Source: a virus. Taken from it: a stretch of 64,000 nt of DNA. Location: IMG/VR virus record IMGVR_UViG_3300034283_001962, positions 1 to 64,000 of that record, one strand, 5' to 3'. Of this stretch, positions 11,973 to 41,359 are shown piece by piece. The position numbers and the translations under genes are program-made. The notes below the pieces were generated by a model, which did not search any database, was not told where the DNA came from, and worked only from the letters and a program-made list of their open reading frames with translations. Position 1 is the stretch's first letter. The number at the start of each line of letters is the position of its first letter.

Positions 11973-14900
11973 TATAATATAGAAGCTTTAGATGAAGTAG
12001 CAATAAATACAGATATGAATTTATGCTCATCATTATTGTTAACAGTATGTCTTACTTTACAATCTTTAGCAATTAAAGGAGACTTATTAAATGATTTAAC
12101 TTGATAAACTATATTTGATTCGTCAATCTGTTTGAAAATCGAATCAGGTTTTACTATATGGAAACTTTTAGTCTTATCTTTAACCATATCAATAATATCA
12201 TTATAGATATATTGACTATCTACTTTACTATATGTAACAGTTCGATCTGTATCTGTAGATTTAGGATAAGTCATATATTGAGATAAACTATTCTTTGGTT
12301 TTTTTACCAATTTTAGAGTAGCACATTGTTGATCATTATATACAACAGATTCATTAAAATATACATCATCTGTTTGTATAAAAGTTTTATCTGGATTGTA
12401 TTTCAGTACTTTAGTATAATCTGAAATATGAGTTAATAACTCATCTTGGATATTAAAAGATAATGGATACTCAATAACGTATGGAGACTTTTGACCATAA
12501 AAGTTACCAAATTTGGTATTCTCAACATTATGTTCCCATACACTATTTCCTTCAGAAGTATAAAAAGTATTTACGTTTCCGATGTAGAGAATGGGCTTAT
12601 AACTATGAAAAGATGTCCAATTTTGTATGTCAAAAGAGAAAGACACAGTAAAAGTGTGATCTTCAAAATAGTCTGTGTTTTTAAGGGAAACTTCTTTACC
12701 ATTTTTGTAAAATTTATTGTTAATATATTGAACTTCTTTATCAAGAAGTTTATAATCTAACTTAGTAATAATTACTCTATTATATCTTGAGTCATATATT
12801 CCATGTAAACCAATACCTTTAAAATGGTTATCTATATTAACTTCAGGAAAGTCTTCTTTAATCTTAAACGTAAGATTATCTATAAAAAATTGTGAAGCAG
12901 TATCTTTAGTAATATCTATTGCTTTTTGACCATTTAATAAAAATATCTGACCTCTTTTAGAATCTACTGTAATGTGACCATACTCTGTTTTTAATAAAAA
13001 CTTATGTTGTGCACCTACATAACCAAAATCTGTTTCGGCAAAATCTAAAGGAGGTACATCTCTATCAAAAATAGATTGACCTAAAAACACTTGACCAGCT
13101 GATGTAGCAGTAGTTAACAATGCATTATACATCATTGATTTATTCTCAAATCTTACAAGAACTACTTTGTTTTCAATACCATCTATAGATGTAAGTCTAC
13201 CATAATTTAATGGAAAATTAAATACTGCAGATGGTCTATATATTAACCAGTTATTTTGTCCTTCCCCTTGTCTTTCAGAAAATATTGCACGATTAGGATA
13301 ATACTGTACACAATTATCGTCAGCATAATTTTCTGGTAGATATGAAAAGAAGTTTTCTTTATTTTGTTTAGAGAATGTTTTATTATACGTATAAGTGTTA
13401 TCATTAATAATAGATACTGTTTTTTCTTGTAACCAATCATTAGGAATATCAGAACTTACTCTTGGAAAGAAATCTCCTTCACGATCATTATAAGCTTGTC
13501 TTGCATCAACATTTATTTCAGACTCACAATAAAAATATTGAATACCATAAGCAAATAAGTAAAACTTACCATTTTGATAAAAAAATGGATTAGTTGGACA
13601 ACTAAAGTTATTAGCTCTTATACCTAAAACTTCTCTTAATTTATTAATAAAACCTTGTCCTTGATCATCTTGTTGTCCGACTACTACATCAGTACTCATC
13701 CAGAACGTAGGATATGCAACATTACCAAGTAAGTCATAAAAAACATCTGATTCATTAGGAAATCCTACTCTATTATCAATAAAAAAAGGAAGTTTTGATT
13801 TATAAGCAAAACGATTAATAAAACAATCACCACCAAATATTACAAGCTCATCATTTAAATTATCTATATTTTGTTGGTAACCTGTATCTATAACTTCTGT
13901 TGAATATAAAGAACCGTATTGACTAGGATTAAACTTTTTTAGTGTTGCATAATAAGTTGAACATACTGCTTGACCATTATATTTACACCCTGTATCATCA
14001 GGTATCCATTTTGTTGTATCTTGAGGAGCACCTATTACTTCATGTACATAAGGAAGAATACCAACTGTTCTAAGATAAACAGAAGACTCTCGTTGATAAT
14101 TATTAATAATATACGTATCTCCAATACCTCTCATTCCTGGTGTTAAGTAAACACCTAGATCAACTCTTCTTTGTTTGTTACCATCAGAAGGTACAGGTAA
14201 ATAACTACTATATTGATTTAAACTATTAAATTGATATGCATAGTTTTTAGTTGGAATTAGTTTTTCAATAATATCTAAAGTCAAAGTAAATCCTGCTACT
14301 GCAGCACCTCCACCATATCCACTAACACCTGTAGATGCAAGACCAAGAGCTACACCAACAGCAATAGCTATAGCATAACTTGCTCCGCTAAGTGTTTTAT
14401 ATCCAGCATGTTCTTTTACTTCAACAAACTCACCTTTAGATATACCATATTCAACTGTTTCTAATTTTAGTACAGAACCTAAATATGGTTGATAAAAAGA
14501 TGTATCAGGTGAATGTAAAGTAAATCTTTTCTTATTATCATCATTTGTAAAAGCATTTAACCTTCTCTCACTATTTACACCACTATCATTTAGAGTTTGC
14601 TGTACTGTAATAAAAGGATCAGGTCTTACATCATTTGCAACATAGTTAGGAAAGAAATAAGTTTCTTCATCTTTTTCATATGTTCCTACATTAGATATAA
14701 GTCCTCTTGCAATAATAGATTTATTATTTGCTCTATTACCTCTTACTATTTTAAATCCAATAATATTATCTTTTTCTTCTTGACTAAGATCTGAATTACG
14801 TATAATTTCCATTACTTGTGAAGCACTTATACGTACACCTAATGGAAAAATAGCACCTTCATTATCATGTATATGACTAATAGAAGAGTCAGGAAAGCGG

Positions 14901-36976: not shown

Positions 36977-37061
36977 CGTTCCTAATGTAATTAATTATGC
37001 AAAGATAGTGAAATTATAATATAAAGATATAGTTATATAATAACTTAATGCTATATTAAAC

Positions 37062-37090
37062 AAAAAAATCCTCCCTTTTGAGGAGGATTT
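37062..37090 (-). terminator. Terminator closing tRNA cassette C
   Basis: AAATCCTCC-TCAAAAG-GGAGGATTTTTTT. Confidence 0.75.
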
Positions 37091-37092
37091 AG

Positions 37093-37166
37093 AACACCTA
37101 GAAAGACTCGAACTTTCACTCTTTTGATCCGTAGTCAAAAGCTTTATCCAATTAAGCTATAGGTGC
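37093..37166 (-). tRNA. tRNA-Arg(ACG)
   Basis: Cloverleaf; anticodon loop CT-ACG-GA; TTCGAGT T-loop. Confidence 0.9.
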
Positions 37167-37169
37167 AGA

Positions 37170-37243
37170 TGGGTGGAATTGGGATTCGAACCCAATCAAG
37201 TGATTCACAGTCACCCGTCAGAATCCAGTCTGAACGATTCCAC
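37170..37243 (-). tRNA. tRNA-His(GTG)
   Basis: Loop CT-GTG-AA; G-1; TTCGAAT. Confidence 0.88.
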
Positions 37244-37245
37244 AG

Positions 37246-37318
37246 TTCCCTTATCTAGGCTCGAACTAGAACTACCAGAGTCAAAATCTGATGTGTTAAC
37301 CATTACACTATAAGGGAA
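37246..37318 (-). tRNA. tRNA-Gln(TTG)
   Basis: Loop TT-TTG-AC. Confidence 0.9.
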
Positions 37319-37334
37319 TAGCATACCATAAAAA

Positions 37335-37408
37335 TGGCACAGGTAGAGAGATTCGAACTCCCAACAGCAGTTTTGGAGACTGACATGATACCATTTCACC
37401 ATACCTGT
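37335..37408 (-). tRNA. tRNA-Trp(CCA)
   Basis: Loop CT-CCA-AA; encoded CCA end. Confidence 0.9.
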
Positions 37409-37413
37409 TTCTG

Positions 37414-37485
37414 TGGTAAGAAAGGGTAACGATCCCTTCTCCAAGGTTTTTCAGACCTTTGCTAATCCATCTCAGCTATCTTACC
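37414..37485 (-). tRNA. tRNA-Phe(GAA)
   Basis: Loop CT-GAA-AA; atypical T-loop ATCGTTA. Confidence 0.85.
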
Positions 37486-37494
37486 GTAATTTAA

Positions 37495-37568
37495 AGCATG
37501 TTGTACAAATTCTTCGTTTTCACATTGCAGGTGAATTAAGCCTATGTGTGCTGGCTGCGTAACATGTT
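37495..37568 (-). ncRNA. Y-RNA-like unit with Cys(GCA) anticodon-type hairpin
   Basis: Terminal stem CATGTT/AACATG, CAGCCA motif, hairpin TTCAC-CTGCAAT-GTGAA; same layout as the units at 58972-59398. Confidence 0.5.
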
Positions 37569-37571
37569 AAA

Positions 37572-37598
37572 AGCACTAACCAGATTCGAACTGGTGTG
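37572..37598 (-). pseudogene. 3' half of a disrupted tRNA (T-arm plus acceptor strand)
   Basis: ACCAG-TTCGAAT-CTGGT-TAGTGCT; matching 5' part AGCACTA-TG-ACCGA lies at ~37765-37778. Confidence 0.65.
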
Positions 37599-37599
37599 A

Positions 37600-37667
37600 A
37601 TCCAGTATGAGAATCGAACTCATTTCAATAGTTTTGCAGACTATTTGGCTTCCATAACCTCACTGGA
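37600..37667 (-). tRNA. tRNA-Cys(GCA), short D-arm
   Basis: Loop CT-GCA-AA; acceptor TCCAGTG/TACTGGA. Confidence 0.82.
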
Positions 37668-37772
37668 TAATTTATACCAATTAAAATCTTTTGCCGTTTT
37701 TCTTCTATGACAATTTGCGCATCTTACATCACATTTTTCAATTTCATTTTTTACCTGATTTAAATCGGTCAT
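37641..37772 (-). pseudogene. HNH endonuclease C-terminal remnant
   Basis: Translates MTDLNQVKNEIEKCDVRCANCHRRKTAK... Confidence 0.65.
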
Positions 37773-37783
37773 AGTGCTATTTG

Positions 37784-37855
37784 ATCCTCGTAAGGTACTC
37801 GAAACCTTTTCCCCAGTTTACAAGACTGGTGCATCACCATATATGCTTACAAGGA
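37784..37855 (-). tRNA. tRNA-Thr(TGT)
   Basis: Loop CT-TGT-AA. Confidence 0.85.
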
Positions 37856-37860
37856 ATATG

Positions 37861-37935
37861 TCGAGTAAACAGGAGTCGAACCTGCATGATGTCTTCACCC
37901 CAAATGAAGAGGCTTACCAGTTAGCCCATTACTCG
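37861..37935 (-). tRNA. tRNA-Pro(TGG)
   Basis: Loop TT-TGG-GG; TTCGACT. Confidence 0.88.
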
Positions 37936-37944
37936 ATGCTATAA

Positions 37945-37979
37945 AATAAAAAACCCCCGATTTTATGTCGGAGGGTGAA
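37945..37979 (-). terminator. Attenuator terminator of cassette C
   Basis: CCCTCCGA-CATAAAA-TCGGGGG-TTTTTT; the 5' arm is complementary to leader nt GAGGGTGAA. Confidence 0.75.
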
Positions 37980-38012
37980 TAGACTTTTTTTAGTCCGTTA
38001 TGCACGAATAGT

Positions 38013-38105
38013 CTAATTTTTTATGACACATGTACATAGTTCACCCTCTCCACAGATACACTGCGGGGTAAAAGTAAACCACGTATGACGTACTATCTTT
38101 TTCAT
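38013..38105 (-). CDS. Leader peptide C (MKKIVRHTWFTFTPQCICGEGELCTCVIKN)
   Basis: Translated by hand; lies between promoter 38110-38141 and terminator 37945-37979. Confidence 0.75.
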   Translation of the reverse strand: MKKIVRHTWFTFTPQCICGEGELCTCVIKN

Positions 38106-38109
38106 AACA

Positions 38110-38141
38110 CAAACATATGAAGAAATTCTGAAACTTCCAAA
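38110..38141 (-). promoter_or_regulatory. Bacteroidota-type promoter for cassette C
   Basis: TTTG-N20-TATGTTTG. Confidence 0.75.
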
Positions 38142-38154
38142 TTTATTTTTTTTG

Positions 38155-38225
38155 TTGGATAGGAGAGAATCGAACTCTCTTGCCTACGTTTTACAGACGT
38201 TGCTGGTTGCCCTGACCTCTACCCA
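38155..38225 (-). tRNA. tRNA-Tyr(GTA), short variable loop
   Basis: Loop CT-GTA-AA; acceptor TGGGTAG/CTATCCA. Confidence 0.8.
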
Positions 38226-38230
38226 ATATG

Positions 38231-38319
38231 CGGAGAAAGTGAGACTCGAACTCACACTAGAGTTTTATCCCTAGAACAGTTTAGCAAACTGCTGCAGTAC
38301 CATTATGACTTATTCCTCC
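38231..38319 (-). tRNA. tRNA-Ser(GCT)
   Basis: Loop TT-GCT-AA; long variable arm. Confidence 0.88.
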
Positions 38320-38324
38320 AAATG

Positions 38325-38408
38325 CGGTGGTAACAGGAATCGAACCTGTATGGCTGTTACACCTTCAACGTTTTCAAGACGCATAAGCCCTCTCTATTGC
38401 GTACCACC
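38325..38408 (-). tRNA. tRNA-Ser(TGA)
   Basis: Loop CT-TGA-AA; long variable arm; reduced D-arm. Confidence 0.82.
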
Positions 38409-38413
38409 AATTG

Positions 38414-38487
38414 TAGCTCTGATGAGATTCGAACTCACACAAAACAGATTTTAAGTCTGCCGCCGTTACCAATTAGACCACAGAGCT
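38414..38487 (-). tRNA. tRNA-Leu(TAA), short variable loop
   Basis: Loop CT-TAA-AA. Confidence 0.85.
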
Positions 38488-38490
38488 ATG

Positions 38491-38566
38491 TACCCCTAGC
38501 GAGATTCGAACTCGCAAAACTCCTGATTCTAAGTCAGGCGACTTTACCTAATTTGCCCATAGAGGT
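38491..38566 (-). tRNA. tRNA-Leu(TAG), short variable loop
   Basis: Loop CT-TAG-AA. Confidence 0.85.
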
Positions 38567-38574
38567 ATATAAAT

Positions 38575-38604
38575 AAAAAAACCTAGCTCTTTTAGGAACT
38601 AGGC
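38575..38604 (-). terminator. Attenuator terminator of cassette B
   Basis: GCCTAGTTC-CTAAAA-GAGCTAGGT-TTTTTT. Confidence 0.75.
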
Positions 38605-38629
38605 TTTAAGAAGTAGGTTAGAAAAAACC

Positions 38630-38707
38630 TTACTGTATATAATCCCTGTTCCCTTGATGAATCAAGAGCGATAAACTGGAATAATATGACAGTAATAGAT
38701 TTCTCAT
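38630..38707 (-). CDS. Leader peptide B (MRNLLLSYYSSLSLLIHQGNRDYIQ)
   Basis: Translated by hand; ATG 4 nt after the stop of the 126-aa ORF. Confidence 0.75.
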   Translation of the reverse strand: MRNLLLSYYSSLSLLIHQGNRDYIQ

Positions 38708-39142: not shown

Positions 39143-39155
39143 TTAATTTAATATG

Positions 39156-39228
39156 TACTCCTTATTAGACTTGAACTAATAACTTCTTCCATGTAAGGGA
39201 AGCACTCTACCAATTGAGTTAAAGGAGC
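39156..39228 (-). tRNA. tRNA-Val(TAC)
   Basis: Loop CT-TAC-AT. Confidence 0.88.
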
Positions 39229-39233
39229 AAAAG

Positions 39234-39307
39234 TGGAAGTCATGGGTATCGAACCCATCTCAGTTTGCTTGCAAAGCAATCTCGCCAGCCAAGGAACATG
39301 CACCCCC
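39234..39307 (-). tRNA. tRNA-Ala(TGC)
   Basis: Loop TT-TGC-AA; G3:U70. Confidence 0.8.
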
Positions 39308-39313
39308 AAAAAA

Positions 39314-39460
39314 TCAGGACTTTACGCCCTGATTAGTTAACTTAAAATAATCTGCTGCAGAAATCCGGTCTCGTACAAAAAGAGAAATAGGATTTGTACG
39401 AGCTGCAGCTTTTCTTTTCTTTTTGCCAAACTTACGTTGGCTTTTTACTTTCTGTGCCAT
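39314..39460 (-). CDS. Small basic protein (48 aa, MAQKVKSQRKFGKKKRKAAART...)
   Basis: Translated by hand; the region also folds into a long hairpin. Confidence 0.4.
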   Translation of the reverse strand: MAQKVKSQRKFGKKKRKAAARTNPISLFVRDRISAADYFKLTNQGVKS

Positions 39461-39536
39461 GTGAATACTTGGCTACTGTTTTGTCAGTAGTTACCGTATT
39501 CGGCTCATAGAATTCTTCATATTCATATTATTTAAG

Positions 39537-39609
39537 TTGGCATACTCAGACTCGAACTGAGGACTTCTGCAGTATCAGTGCAGTACTCTAACCACTGAGT
39601 TATACGCCA
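39537..39609 (-). tRNA. tRNA-Ile(GAT)
   Basis: Loop CT-GAT-AC. Confidence 0.88.
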
Positions 39610-39614
39610 GTATG

Positions 39615-39689
39615 TTGACTCTATCGGATTCGAACCGATGACCTTAACGTTATGAGCGTTCTGCTACTAACCAACTGAGCTAAGAGTCA
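39615..39689 (-). tRNA. tRNA(CAT): Ile2 or elongator Met
   Basis: Loop CT-CAT-AA. Confidence 0.85.
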
Positions 39690-39695
39690 AGAAGC

Positions 39696-39766
39696 CGAGA
39701 GTGGGAGGTTCGAACTCCGACCTTCACATCGACAGTGTGACATGCTCGCCATTACACTACACCCTC
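39696..39766 (-). tRNA. tRNA-Asp(GTC)
   Basis: Loop CT-GTC-GA. Confidence 0.85.
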
Positions 39767-39780
39767 GTTTAAATTTATTG

Positions 39781-39853
39781 TACTCTCAACGGGGATTGAA
39801 CCCGTATTGACAGATTGAAAGTCTGTTATCCTGACCAATTAGATGATGAGAGC
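39781..39853 (-). tRNA. tRNA-Glu(TTC)
   Basis: Loop CT-TTC-AA. Confidence 0.88.
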
Positions 39854-39900
39854 AAAGCTCTTCACCCTCTTTTAGTGAATTTCTCATAATACTATTTTTG

Positions 39901-39974
39901 TGCAGTAAACAAGACTCGAACTTGCAACTTCCACCTTGGCAAGGTGGCACTCTAACCAATTGAGCTATTACTGC
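39901..39974 (-). tRNA. tRNA-Gly(GCC)
   Basis: Loop TT-GCC-AA. Confidence 0.9.
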
Positions 39975-39975
39975 G

Positions 39976-40049
39976 TGGAGCAGGTAACCGGGATCGAACC
40001 GACATCAGAAGATTGGAAATCTCCTGCACTACCATTGTGCTATACCTGC
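39976..40049 (-). tRNA. tRNA-Gly(TCC)
   Basis: Loop TT-TCC-AA; encoded CCA. Confidence 0.9.
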
Positions 40050-40165
40050 ATTTCAGTTTTTCATGAGCCTTGTAGAACTGTAACTACCGCCGGACCTACT
40101 TTCTAGAATTTCCTCCGAACCCCTTTGCACCAGATTTTATATCTGGTGTGGTGCTACTGTTATCT

Positions 40166-40693
40166 TTAACCTACTTTCCTCAGTAATTCACTAAGTCTAA
40201 GTTCTGTGTAATCTTCTAATGGGATGACACTTAAAGCTTTCTTTCTGATAATGTGATCAGCTGCTTTTGTAGCTATCATTTGTCCACTTTTAAAGATCGG
40301 GACTTGGTTGATTCCTTTAGTCCATCCTTTAAAATCTTGTACCAGTTTTGATGACAGGGTTTTTTTGACATCTGCGAAATCAAACTCAAGCCCTTCAATA
40401 GAGATTGGTATCTCTCTACTGATAAGTTCTGATGTTTCGATTGTCTTAACCCCTTCTTCATATAATCTCAGGTACTCTGTTTTGTACCTTTTTTTCTCAT
40501 CATAATTGAATATATAATGAGCACCTCTTAAACCGTAACGGAAAACTACTACTGTAACAAACTTGGTAAGCTTGTAGTCCTGGGAGTCCGTACCTATCCT
40601 AATAGTCAAGTTGTTGTGTTCATTGACTTGTTCTAGAATATGATCTACCAGATTTACTATAGTACCATCCTCTTTTCTGAAGTACTTTTCCAT
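40166..40693 (-). CDS. RNase H-like YkuK (DUF458) family protein
   Basis: IGTDSQ, GAHY, RLYEE, A.KAADH motifs; start moved to MEKYF because the track's longer start overlaps a tRNA. Confidence 0.8.
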   Translation of the reverse strand: MEKYFRKEDGTIVNLVDHILEQVNEHNNLTIRIGTDSQDYKLTKFVTVVVFRYGLRGAHYIFNYDEKKRYKTEYLRLYEEGVKTIETSELISREIPISIEGLEFDFADVKKTLSSKLVQDFKGWTKGINQVPIFKSGQMIATKAADHIIRKKALSVIPLEDYTELRLSELLRKVG

Positions 40694-40706
40694 AACGGTT
40701 TTGTTG

Positions 40707-40780
40707 ATGCAGGGGTGGGCCGACGATCCCACGTATTTCTAGGTTATGAGCCTAGCGAGTCACCTCTACTCTACCCTGCA
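40707..40780 (-). tRNA. tRNA-Met(CAT), initiator-like, atypical T-loop
   Basis: TGCAGGG acceptor; CTAGG-CTCATAA-CCTAG. Confidence 0.75.
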
Positions 40781-40790
40781 GTTTATAATG

Positions 40791-40862
40791 CGTTCCCACC
40801 AAGACTCGAACTTGGATCAAATGATTAACAGTCACCCGTACTAGCCTTTGTACTATAGGAAC
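40791..40862 (-). tRNA. tRNA-Asn(GTT)
   Basis: Loop CT-GTT-AA. Confidence 0.88.
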
Positions 40863-40871
40863 ATTTAGTTG

Positions 40872-40943
40872 TAGCCCCAACAAGGATCGAACTCAGCAAT
40901 TGTTTTTTAAATTATAATGTAGTTTTCTATGACAATTACTGCA
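40872..40943 (-). pseudogene. HNH remnant (CSNCHRKLHY...) fused to a tRNA 3' fragment (GTTCGATCCTTGTTGGGGCTA)
   Basis: Hand translation plus T-loop/acceptor fragment. Confidence 0.6.
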
Positions 40944-41013
40944 GGGTTACGCAGAATCGAACTGCGACTGAAAGATTAGAAGTCTCTCGTTCTATCCATT
41001 AAACTATAACCCC
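40942..41013 (-). tRNA. tRNA-Arg(TCT)
   Basis: Loop CT-TCT-AA. Confidence 0.9.
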
Positions 41014-41071
41014 ATTATATTTAAATTCTCAATAACCTTTGTAAATACAACACATTATTTAATTAAACAAG

Positions 41072-41144
41072 TTCCCCCGCTGAGATTCGAACTCAGCCCC
41101 ATAGGTTAAAAGCCTATTGCCTACTACCAGTTTGCTACAGGGGA
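41072..41144 (-). tRNA. tRNA-Lys(TTT)
   Basis: Loop CT-TTT-AA. Confidence 0.9.
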
Positions 41145-41155
41145 TTATAAAAACG

Positions 41156-41190
41156 AAAAACCCCTGTACCGTTTTACTGGCTCAGGGGTC
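41156..41190 (-). terminator. Attenuator terminator of cassette A
   Basis: CCCCTGAGCC-AGTAAAAC-GGTACAGGGG-TTTTT. Confidence 0.78.
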
Positions 41191-41220
41191 TTAAAATTGC
41201 TATGTTAAAATTAACTTTTC

Positions 41221-41310
41221 TTAAGTTATAGCAAAAGGACCCACTGAGCCGAACTTCTCATTCGCTCTCCCGATATTATCTACTATAATATATGATGGTC
41301 TTGTTTGCAC
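41221..41310 (-). CDS. Leader peptide A (GTG start; MQTRPSYIIVDNIGRANEKFGSVGPFAIT)
   Basis: Translated by hand; lies between promoter 41328-41359 and the terminator. Confidence 0.72.
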   Translation of the reverse strand: MQTRPSYIIVDNIGRANEKFGSVGPFAIT

Positions 41311-41327
41311 TTTAAAATTTTGAATCA

Positions 41328-41359
41328 CAATATTAAGAAATCTTTTTGATACTACCAAA
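41328..41359 (-). promoter_or_regulatory. Promoter for cassette A
   Basis: TTTG-N20-TAATATTG (one mismatch to TAnnTTTG). Confidence 0.65.

What the first reader, a model, noticed from the sequence alone, without database searches (positions are those of the whole stretch)
37945..38141. Attenuator C: near-leaderless leader covering all eight downstream tRNA types
Codons 6-16 (CGT CAT ACG TGG TTT ACT TTT ACC CCG CAG TGT) include all eight amino acids of the cassette. GAGGGTGAA (codons 20-22) is a perfect 9-nt complement of TTCACCCTC, which overlaps the terminator's 5' arm. The ATG lies only 4 nt after the TAnnTTTG box, so the mRNA is probably leaderless or nearly so (inference).
Basis: partly seen in the sequence, partly recalled or inferred. 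Interest (0 to 1): 0.82.

Follow-up and report, generated by a model that had tools for sequence, protein, structure and literature searches.

The report
Leader-peptide switch gating phage tRNA genes
This lake-water phage places eight of its tRNA genes behind a tiny test gene spelled in exactly those eight amino acids and wired to a switchable transcription stop, so it probably makes these tRNAs only when ribosomes run short of them, and the same design occurs in cultured marine phages where it can be tested.

Summary
On the minus strand, a 30-codon ORF (38105..38013) lies between a Bacteroidota-type promoter and an intrinsic terminator. The terminator ends 6 nt before a block of eight tRNA genes.

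- **Codon match:** codons 6-16 use only the eight amino acids of those tRNAs, and all eight. This is the only such 11-codon window in the six frames of the 118-kb genome.
- **RNA switch:** folding gives a trp-style 1:2 / 2:3 / 3:4 switch.
- **Sister units:** two more units in the window (A, B) gate the other 17 tRNA genes. The three leaders together cover all 20 amino acids.
- **Other phages:** my screen found the same architecture in Cellulophaga phages phi40:1/phi38:1, Calle_1, phi4:1, phi17:2 and phi10:1, and in Maribacter phage Panino. Leader composition tracks cassette composition there too.
- **Controls:** antisense strands and 82 spacers in other phages' loci gave one partial-coverage hit inside an annotated gene.

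Best reading (about 0.8): a multivalent ribosome-stalling attenuator that opens the tRNA cassette when its codons are decoded slowly.

There is no RNA or experimental evidence, and no orthologue of leader C. Ten literature searches found no published account. This scan has noted similar candidates on other phage DNA.

The parts
38138..38141 (-). -33-like TTTG element of promoter P_C
   Evidence: Lies 20 nt upstream of the -7 box. It is one of only 13 full TTTG-N19-21-TAnnTTTG motifs in the 118-kb genome, both strands.
38110..38117 (-). -7 box (TAnnTTTG type); predicted +1 is the A of the ATG
   Evidence: The box position of -12 to -5 in flavobacteria comes from PMC9723704 (passages).
38013..38105 (-). 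Leader ORF C, 30 codons plus TAG stop
38058..38090 (-). Sensing run, codons 6-16: only and all of the eight cassette amino acids
38070..38085 (-). Segment 1 (inside the sensing run); pairs with segment 2 in the free RNA (16 pairs, 6 of them G-U)
   Evidence: Minimum-free-energy folds; coordinates.
38033..38048 (-). Segment 2 (core 38048..38040, codons 20-22): partner of segment 1 or of segment 3
37971..37979 (-). Segment 3: perfect 9-nt complement of the segment 2 core; overlaps the terminator 5' arm
   Evidence: Duplex 2:3 is -17.3 kcal/mol against -10.6 for the terminator.
37941..37974 (-). Intrinsic terminator: hairpin 37974..37954 (7 pairs, 5 G-C) plus T-run 37953..37941
37092..37935 (-). 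Cassette C: tRNA-Pro, Thr, Cys, Phe, Trp, Gln, His, Arg(acg); no consensus promoter box inside it
37066..37090 (-). Terminator closing the tRNA array
38578..38707 (-). Sister attenuator B. Leader ORF 38707..38630, with a 12-codon run of only Leu, Ser and Tyr codons. Segment 2 at 38653..38645, terminator at 38607..38578.
   Evidence: The run is unique in the six frames of the genome.
38154..38566 (-). Cassette B: tRNA-Leu(tag), Leu(taa), Ser(tga), Ser(gct), Tyr
   Evidence: Ser(tga) at 38324-38411 was found only with relaxed ARAGORN and weakly by Rfam.
41157..41359 (-). Sister attenuator A. Promoter-like boxes at 41359.. and 41335..41328. Leader ORF 41310..41221 (GTG start inferred). A 12-codon run at 41289..41254 drawn from the ten cassette amino acids. 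Segment 2 at 41250..41238, segment 3 at 41190..41179, terminator hairpin at 41192..41157.
39155..41144 (-). Cassette A: Lys, Arg(tct), Asn, Met, [175-aa ORF], Gly, Gly, Glu, Asp, Met, Ile, [48-aa ORF], Ala-like(tgc), Val
   Evidence: The Ala-like gene at 39307..39234 was read by eye and aligned to annotated phage tRNA-Ala genes.

Best explanation
Attenuator C is a ribosome-mediated (leader-peptide) transcription attenuator that controls a block of eight phage tRNA genes.

Proposed mechanism:
- Transcription starts at or next to the ATG of a 30-codon leader, and a ribosome loads at once.
- If codons 6-14 are read quickly, the ribosome moves onto segment 2. After release, segment 1 re-pairs with segment 2. 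The terminator hairpin then forms, and transcription stops 6 nt before tRNA-Pro.
- If the ribosome stalls on any sensing codon because the matching charged tRNA is scarce, segment 1 is covered and segment 2 is free. Segment 2 pairs with segment 3 and takes away the terminator's 5' arm, so RNA polymerase runs into the cassette.
- Each of the eight amino acids is represented, so the leader acts as an OR-gate. As the phage tRNAs accumulate, the switch closes again (negative feedback).

Shown: the sequence elements, their order, the alternative pairings, the non-random leader/cassette match, and its recurrence in other phages.
Inferred: the transcription start, translation of the leader, stalling, and the direction of control.
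For: Anatomy: promoter boxes, ORF, terminator and tRNA genes lie in the right order with no room for another promoter.

Leader/cassette match:
- The 11-codon window is unique in the genome.
- Chance is 1.6e-4 per spacer by simulation, or 4e-6 if all eight must be covered.

Switch:
- The free RNA folds into 1:2 plus the terminator.
- With a ribosome footprint placed at codon 7 or codon 10, the 2:3 helix forms and the terminator is lost.
- The nascent RNA up to the terminator loop folds into 2:3.
- 2:3 is -17.3 kcal/mol against -10.6 for the terminator.

Sister units: B (Leu/Ser/Tyr run before Leu, Leu, Ser, Ser, Tyr tRNAs) and A (run drawn from the ten amino acids of the 12 tRNAs behind it) have the same layout. 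The Arg codon is of the CGN type in C, whose cassette holds tRNA-Arg(acg). It is AGA in A, whose cassette holds tRNA-Arg(tct).

Other phages: the same layout precedes tRNA cassettes in phi40:1 (3 leaders), Calle_1 (3), Panino (2), phi4:1 (3), phi17:2 (3) and phi10:1 (1). Composition tracks the cassette. For example, Asn codons appear in the run where the cassette holds tRNA-Asn and are absent in phi10:1, which lacks it.

In 12 non-redundant leaders:
- The best partner of the terminator 5' arm always starts at ORF nt 44-67. It beats mononucleotide shuffles at 46 or fewer per 1000 in 11 of 12.
- 147 of 195 residues between codon 2 and that partner belong to the leader's own cassette set, against 38 of 112 residues after it.
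- The own-cassette mean is 0.75 against 0.19 for 96 unrelated leader-cassette pairs. 0 of 20,000 label permutations reach the observed value.

Screen controls:
- 9 of 48 sense spacers score 4.5 or more in six loci: five flavobacterial-phage loci plus the window, which was grouped with them on inference. None of the 48 antisense spacers does.
- In other phages' loci, 0 of 44 spacers and 1 of 38 reach that score. The one hit has partial coverage and lies inside an annotated HNH gene.

Host machinery: leader-peptide attenuation is reported for amino-acid operons of Flavobacterium psychrophilum (PMC9723704, passages).
Against: - No RNA evidence of any kind: no RNA run holds the locus.
- No orthologue of leader C was found, so its helices cannot be tested by covariation.
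- With the A site at codon 16 (Cys), the modelled footprint reaches segment 2 and the terminator forms. Further Cys and Thr codons (18, 24-26) lie in or beyond segment 2. Stalling there would favour termination, so Cys sensing is doubtful.
- 5 of 17 residues in codons 2-18 are outside the set.
- Two Thr codons (ACT, ACC) need extended U34 wobble to be read by the single tRNA-Thr(tgt). This rests on wobble rules recalled, not on a call.
- There is no terminator between tRNA-Tyr and P_C. Transcripts coming from cassette B also enter leader C, and they are not leaderless.
- One lake-water contig (depth 3.6) changes codon 6 from Arg to Cys. The residue stays in the set, but the only Arg codon is lost.
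- B's antiterminator is weak: 418 of 1000 shuffles do as well in the systematic test.
- The 12 leaders are not independent: three cassette types are shared among the marine phages.
- Leaderless mRNAs are only 5.5% of mRNAs in F. psychrophilum.
- In an earlier run with genome-wide frequencies, one antisense spacer scored 5.06.
Confidence: 0.8

Rival explanations
1. A real leader-peptide attenuator that reports general translation capacity or amino-acid starvation (charging) rather than tRNA supply. The match to the cassette would then arise from a shared evolutionary history of the module, not from a feedback on the tRNAs themselves.
For: Stalling cannot tell scarce tRNA from uncharged tRNA. 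This is established for classical attenuators (recalled). Each amino acid appears only once to three times in the run, unlike the long runs of the his or phe leaders.
Against: Leader composition follows the cassette set closely in units with quite different sets. It also follows the isoacceptor family for Arg. A general sensor would not need this partition. More tRNA would not relieve amino-acid starvation.
Confidence: 0.1
2. No regulation. The hairpin merely ends transcription coming from the upstream cassette, the ORF is not translated, and the composition match is a chance or mutational by-product.
For: No expression data. There is no terminator between cassette B and P_C, so a terminator here would be useful for upstream transcripts.
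Against: The terminator lies downstream of promoter P_C and directly before tRNA-Pro. A constitutive stop would therefore silence eight tRNA genes that have no other consensus promoter. Chance is excluded and by recurrence in other phages. The antiterminator position is conserved.
Confidence: 0.04
3. The small ORF encodes a functional micro-protein, and the terminator is unrelated to it.
For: Homologous leaders are annotated as hypothetical proteins in public records: phi40:1 gp066 and gp070, Panino CDS0063, phi4:1_13 gene 075.
Against: There is no sequence conservation among leaders beyond composition. tblastn of the peptide found nothing in 50,697 phage records. Composition changes with the cassette.
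Confidence: 0.02
4. A switch with the opposite sign or acting after transcription: translation of the leader protects the precursor RNA or guides its processing, and stalling lowers tRNA output.
For: Stalls at the last sensing codon and in the distal Cys/Thr codons favour the terminator in the model. In unit A the free RNA folds into the antiterminator rather than the terminator.
Against: For codons 6-14 the geometry gives read-through on stalling. The layout is that of classical attenuators in all 12 leaders.
Confidence: 0.04

Closest known systems
Multivalent leader-peptide attenuators of enterobacterial amino-acid operons (thr leader: Thr and Ile codons; ilvGMEDA leader: Ile, Leu, Val). Recalled from general knowledge, not from a call.
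   Same: A short translated leader with codons for more than one amino acid, alternative 1:2 / 2:3 / 3:4 helices, and an intrinsic terminator before the regulated genes. Read-through follows ribosome stalling.
   Different: The regulated genes are tRNA genes, not biosynthetic enzymes. Eight to ten amino acids are sampled, once to three times each, instead of runs of one to three amino acids. Segment 2 lies inside the ORF. The mRNA is predicted to be leaderless. No Rfam leader family matches.
pheST leader (pheM) attenuator of E. coli (recalled)
   Same: Leader-peptide attenuation controlling a component of the translation apparatus according to the supply of charged tRNA.
   Different: It controls a synthetase gene, senses a single amino acid, and is bacterial rather than phage-borne.
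T-box riboswitches (Rfam RF00230)
   Same: They sense tRNA status and act through a terminator/antiterminator choice.
   Different: T-boxes bind uncharged tRNA directly through a specifier codon and need no translation. There is no T-box match here at E up to 1. An in-frame ORF with start and stop carries the codons here.
Leader-peptide attenuation candidates upstream of amino-acid operons in Flavobacterium psychrophilum (PMC9723704; passages read)
   Same: A related host group with the same promoter type. This suggests that flavobacterial hosts can run this mechanism.
   Different: Those control amino-acid biosynthesis operons of the bacterium. tRNA genes are not mentioned in the passages I read.

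Membership tests
Classical leader-peptide transcription attenuators | Short ORF at the 5' end of the transcript, upstream of the regulated genes | tested here: met
   30-codon ORF at 38105..38013, directly after the promoter boxes.
Classical leader-peptide transcription attenuators | Regulatory codons that correspond to the product of the regulated genes | tested here: met
   Codons 6-16 use only and all of the eight cassette amino acids. 12 of 17 residues in codons 2-18 are in the own set, against 0 of 17 for set B and 6 of 17 for set A.
Classical leader-peptide transcription attenuators | Intrinsic terminator between the leader and the regulated genes | tested here: met
   Hairpin at 37974..37954 plus T-run, ending 6 nt before tRNA-Pro.
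Classical leader-peptide transcription attenuators | Antiterminator helix mutually exclusive with the terminator | tested here: met
   Perfect 9-nt complement overlapping the 5' arm. 7 of 1000 shuffles do as well. It forms in footprint-constrained folds.
Classical leader-peptide transcription attenuators | Segment 1 within the regulatory codons that sequesters segment 2 when no ribosome is stalled | tested here: met
   16-pair helix 38085..38070 with 38048..38033 in the minimum-free-energy fold.
Classical leader-peptide transcription attenuators | Regulated genes encode amino-acid biosynthesis enzymes or synthetases | tested here: not met
   The regulated genes are eight tRNA genes.
Classical leader-peptide transcription attenuators | Translation of the leader, and stalling-dependent read-through | not testable with these tools
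   No RNA holder is listed for the locus. An experiment is needed.
Rfam leader families (Trp, His, Thr, Leu, Phe leaders) and T-box | Match to the covariance model | tested here: not met
   No match at 37941-38141 at E up to 1. The only leader hit (Phe_leader, E 0.91) lies at 37060-37124 on the array's final terminator.
Bacteroidota sigma-A promoter (-33 TTTG / -7 TAnnTTTG) | Both boxes present with 19-21 nt spacing | tested here: met
   Spacing is 20 nt. It is one of 13 such motifs in 118 kb. Activity was not tested.

The most novel reading that the evidence does not exclude
Phage tRNA arrays are built from demand-controlled units. Each unit carries a leader peptide that serves as a barcode of its own tRNAs. 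The phage would then replace exactly those tRNAs that the infected cell lacks, for instance after host anticodon nucleases or other tRNA-depleting defences strike, or in a host with a mismatched tRNA pool. In this phage three barcodes would together survey all 20 amino acids.
Probability: 0.35. Interest if true: 0.92.

Novelty: new variant of a known kind. Interest (0 to 1): 0.86.

Why it matters
Why phages carry tRNA genes, and how they use them, is a long-standing question. The arrays are usually treated as constitutive.

A leader-peptide switch whose codons mirror the tRNAs behind it would show that tRNA output is set by measured decoding demand. It would also extend the textbook attenuation mechanism from enzymes to the tRNAs themselves.

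The same device is present in cultured Cellulophaga and Maribacter phages with an established host system. Time-course RNA-seq has been published for phi38:1. The idea can therefore be tested directly.

The compact multi-amino-acid sensors could also serve as reporters of the supply of individual tRNAs.

Tried and rejected
**Orthologues of the window phage**
- A terminase search in viral contigs and metagenome contigs gave one relative at 59% identity (L002 = L021). It has no tRNA array.
- The 175-aa ORF inside the array has no relative in viral contigs.
- A degenerate pattern of the C run gave 0 hits.
- tblastn of the leader against phages gave no match.
- blastn of the array against phages matched single tRNA genes only.

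**Wider hunts in viral contigs**
- The box-N4-start pattern gave 120 loci. None lay before a tRNA gene.
- A pattern from the Pro-type leaders found phi4:1 itself and one chance hit without tRNAs.

**RNA evidence**
- No RNA holder is listed.

**Micro-diversity**
- Lake-water contigs of four runs are identical to the window in leader C, apart from one low-depth change at 38090. No covariation test is possible.

**Phages with no signal in the screen**
- Tenacibaculum phage Gundel_1, the 635-kb uncultured phage LR745206, Bacteroides phage DAC19, crAss-like cr106_1 and Lak-A1.
- Myrna, Phendrix, PAU and Metamorpho.

**Weak or incomplete tests**
- B's antiterminator is not better than shuffles in the arm-only test.
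- A first automatic terminator finder mis-set the hairpins and crashed. It was replaced.
The count was then made from stored files by coordinates.

**Not seen**
- Supplementary files, for example the per-gene RNA-seq tables of PMC5335546. They may show whether the phi38:1 leaders and tRNAs are expressed.

Full report
**Setting.** The window is the first 64 kb of a 118,407-bp virus record. Portal, terminase and major head proteins match phage families. The DNA is held by lake-water metagenomes only. All tRNA genes of the genome lie on the minus strand between 37092 and 41144:
- 23 by ARAGORN;
- a tRNA-Ser(tga) at 38324-38411, found with a relaxed threshold (weak Rfam hit);
- an odd tRNA-Ala(tgc)-like gene at 39307..39234, which neither program calls. 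I read it by eye. It aligns over its whole length with annotated tRNA-Ala genes of two marine phages, with an invariant anticodon loop.

**The observation.** Between tRNA-Tyr (ends 38154) and tRNA-Pro (starts 37935) the minus strand holds, in this order:
- a TTTG at 38141..38138;
- 20 nt later, a TAnnTTTG box at 38117..38110;
- four bases, then an ATG at 38105 that opens a 30-codon ORF ending in TAG at 38015..38013;
- a hairpin at 37974..37954 with a T-run at 37953..37941.

They encode only Arg, His, Thr, Trp, Phe, Pro, Gln and Cys, and all eight. Those are the amino acids of the eight tRNA genes that follow, up to the array's final terminator at 37090..37066. The 9-nt segment in codons 20-22 (38048..38040) is the perfect complement of 37979..37971, which overlaps the terminator's 5' arm. 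All stated facts are therefore correct.

**Chance.**
- In all six frames of the genome there is 1 window of 11 codons with only and all of these eight amino acids. There are 3 windows (2 loci) with only these amino acids.
- The eight amino acids make up 0.285 of six-frame residues. The expected number of such runs per 218-nt spacer is 1.8e-4, or 4e-6 if all eight must occur.
- 16 of 100,000 simulated spacers had a run of 11 or more.
- The spacer folds with z = -4.16; 0 of 200 shuffles fold as well.
- The 4.6-kb array region has 12 terminator-like sites, against 2.4 +/- 1.4 in shuffles.

**The switch.**
- The free RNA pairs 38085..38070, which lies inside the sensing run (segment 1), with 38048..38033 (segment 2). 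The helix has 16 pairs, 6 of them G-U. The terminator also forms.
- With a 30-nt footprint placed with the A site at codon 7 or codon 10, segment 2 instead pairs with segment 3 and beyond, and the terminator is lost.
- The nascent RNA up to the terminator loop also adopts 2:3.
- The 2:3 duplex is -17.3 kcal/mol; the terminator is -10.6.
- With the A site at codon 16, the footprint reaches segment 2 and the terminator forms. The last sensing codon, and the later Cys/Thr codons, therefore do not fit the simple model.
- No Rfam leader or T-box model matches the locus.

**Sister units in the window.**

Unit B:
- The ORF at 38707..38630 holds a 12-codon run of only Leu, Ser and Tyr codons. The run is unique in the genome, with an expectation of 8.8e-6 per spacer.
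- It precedes a terminator at 38607..38578 and tRNA-Leu(tag), Leu(taa), Ser(tga), Ser(gct) and Tyr.
- The Leu and Ser codons come from both codon families, as do the tRNAs.
- Its antiterminator (38653..38645 with 38603..38595) appears when the nascent RNA is folded (-12.4 kcal/mol). It is no better than shuffles in the arm-only test (418 of 1000).

Unit A:
- The ORF is at 41310..41221; the GTG start is inferred.
- It has a 12-codon run drawn entirely from the ten amino acids of the 12 tRNA genes behind it. Alone, this has an expectation of 7e-3.
- Directly after the run comes a 13-nt segment that pairs with the terminator's 5' arm (-23.3 kcal/mol, 0 of 1000 shuffles).
- Here the free RNA prefers the antiterminator.

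A, B and C gate 12, 5 and 8 tRNA genes, and together they cover all 20 amino acids. Arg occurs twice: as AGA in A, with tRNA-Arg(tct), and as a CGN codon in C, with tRNA-Arg(acg).

Only 13 full -33/-7 promoter motifs exist in the genome. Two of them serve C and the gene preceding B, and none lies inside cassette C.

**Other phages.** No orthologue of this phage carrying the array was found. I therefore wrote a screen. For each spacer before a tRNA gene, it looks for the longest run of residues drawn only from the amino acids of the downstream tRNAs, scored by background frequency and by coverage of the set.

It recovered B and C. It also found the same device in cultured phages of marine flavobacteria from several taxonomic groups (taxonomy lines):
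- phi40:1 (99.9% identical to phi38:1 over the array) and Calle_1: three leaders each;
- phi4:1 and phi17:2: three each;
- Panino: two;
- phi10:1: one.

Cassette sets differ between phages, and the runs follow them:
- phi10:1 has tRNAs for Tyr, Trp, Phe, Ser and Cys, and a 10-codon run of exactly these.
- phi40:1 adds tRNA-Asn, and its 16-codon run adds Asn.
- The Pro/Glu/Gln/His/Leu/Arg cassettes have runs of exactly these six.

Several tRNAs needed for these sets were found only with relaxed ARAGORN settings. Some leaders are annotated as hypothetical proteins: phi40:1 gp066 and gp070, Panino CDS0063, phi4:1_13 gene 075.

**Quantification.**
- Six loci were scored together: five flavobacterial-phage loci and the window, which I grouped with them on inference. 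Calle_1 and phi17:2 were left out as near-duplicates, and Gundel_1 was included. 9 of 48 sense spacers score 4.5 or more, 8 of them with full coverage. None of the 48 antisense spacers does.
- In other loci, 0 of 44 spacers reach that score, and 1 of 38 does. The one hit has coverage 0.85 and lies inside an annotated HNH gene of Myrna.
- An earlier run with genome-wide frequencies gave one antisense score of 5.06.
- In 12 non-redundant leaders, the best partner of the terminator 5' arm starts at ORF nt 44-67. It beats shuffles at 46 or fewer per 1000 in 11 of 12.
- The sensing part was defined uniformly as codon 2 up to that partner. 147 of 195 residues belong to the leader's own cassette set, against 38 of 112 in the distal part.
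- The own-cassette mean is 0.75 against 0.19 for 96 unrelated pairs. 0 of 20,000 label permutations reach the observed value.
- The leaders share ancestry within three cassette types, so these are not 12 independent events. The window's differently composed cassettes are the most informative cases.

**Leaderless start.** A TAnnTTTG-like box ends exactly 4 nt before the start codon in 6 of 12 leaders (C among them). It ends 12-22 nt before the start in 4, and is absent within 70 nt in 2 that follow an upstream ORF. In Flavobacterium psychrophilum this box lies at -12 to -5, and leaderless mRNAs are 5.5% of mRNAs (PMC9723704, passages read). The predicted +1 of leader C is therefore the A of its ATG.

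**Natural variation.** Contigs of four lake-water runs match the window without differences across leader C. The exception is one contig (depth 3.6) that changes codon 6 from Arg to Cys. The residue stays within the set, but the only Arg codon is removed.

**Literature and earlier notes.** Ten full-text searches found no account of leader-peptide attenuation acting on tRNA genes. I read passages of three papers:
- the Panino paper (PMC11590407), which counts 20 tRNAs and mentions no leaders;
- the phi38:1 transcriptome paper (PMC5335546), which has no mention of leaders or terminators;
- PMC9723704.

The library lacks most subscription journals, and supplements were closed. This scan's own notes list similar codon-matched candidates before tRNA genes of other uncultured phages: giant freshwater, T4-like, peat-soil and crAss-like. 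I did not test those. They suggest that the device is not confined to the phages I sampled.

**Verdict.** It works like a multivalent trp/thr-type attenuator, but its cargo is a tRNA cassette and its leader is a compact sample of that cassette's amino acids. It fails the membership feature 'controls biosynthetic or synthetase genes' and matches no curated RNA family. I therefore class it as a new variant of a known kind.

Noticed in passing
window 39234-39307 (-); L037 about 12000-12076 (-): An odd tRNA-Ala(tgc)-like gene with a G3:U70-type acceptor stem and an unusual D region. ARAGORN and Rfam both miss it. A close homologue sits at the head of the first cassette of Cellulophaga phage phi40:1.
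   Followed up: partly
window 40166-40693 (-): A 175-aa ORF embedded in cassette A matches Pfam PF04308 (RNase H-like; E 9.5e-11, above the cut-off). This is a nuclease-fold protein inside a tRNA array.
   Followed up: partly
window 39314-39460 (-): A 48-codon, very basic ORF between tRNA-Ile and the Ala-like tRNA. It has three consecutive Ala codons inside a long hairpin. Its stop codon lies in the 3' arm of a hairpin plus T-run directly before the Ala-like gene. It may be a fourth control unit with a different logic. Its Ala/Val content is not striking.
   Followed up: no
window 37641-37772 (-): A 43-codon ORF with Cys/His motifs between tRNA-Thr and tRNA-Cys, with no significant Pfam match. 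It may be a remnant of a homing endonuclease like the HNH genes inside the tRNA arrays of Gundel_1 and Myrna. Lake-water contigs vary at 37702-37723.
   Followed up: partly
window 41157-41310 (-): In unit A the free RNA folds into the antiterminator rather than the terminator. A may therefore be open by default, unlike B and C.
   Followed up: no
L037, L038, L039, L040, L166, L167: The tRNA cassettes recur as modules in unrelated flavobacterial phages, with 74-89% DNA identity over tRNA genes. The modules are Pro/Glu/Gln/His/Leu/Arg, Ala/Lys/Ile/Gly/Met/Asp/Thr/Val/Arg and Tyr/Ser/Asn/Trp/Phe/Cys. This suggests horizontal spread of leader-plus-cassette units.
   Followed up: partly
window 37502-37507: Some lake-water contigs carry 3-nt insertions in the spacer between tRNA-Cys and tRNA-Phe.
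   Followed up: no
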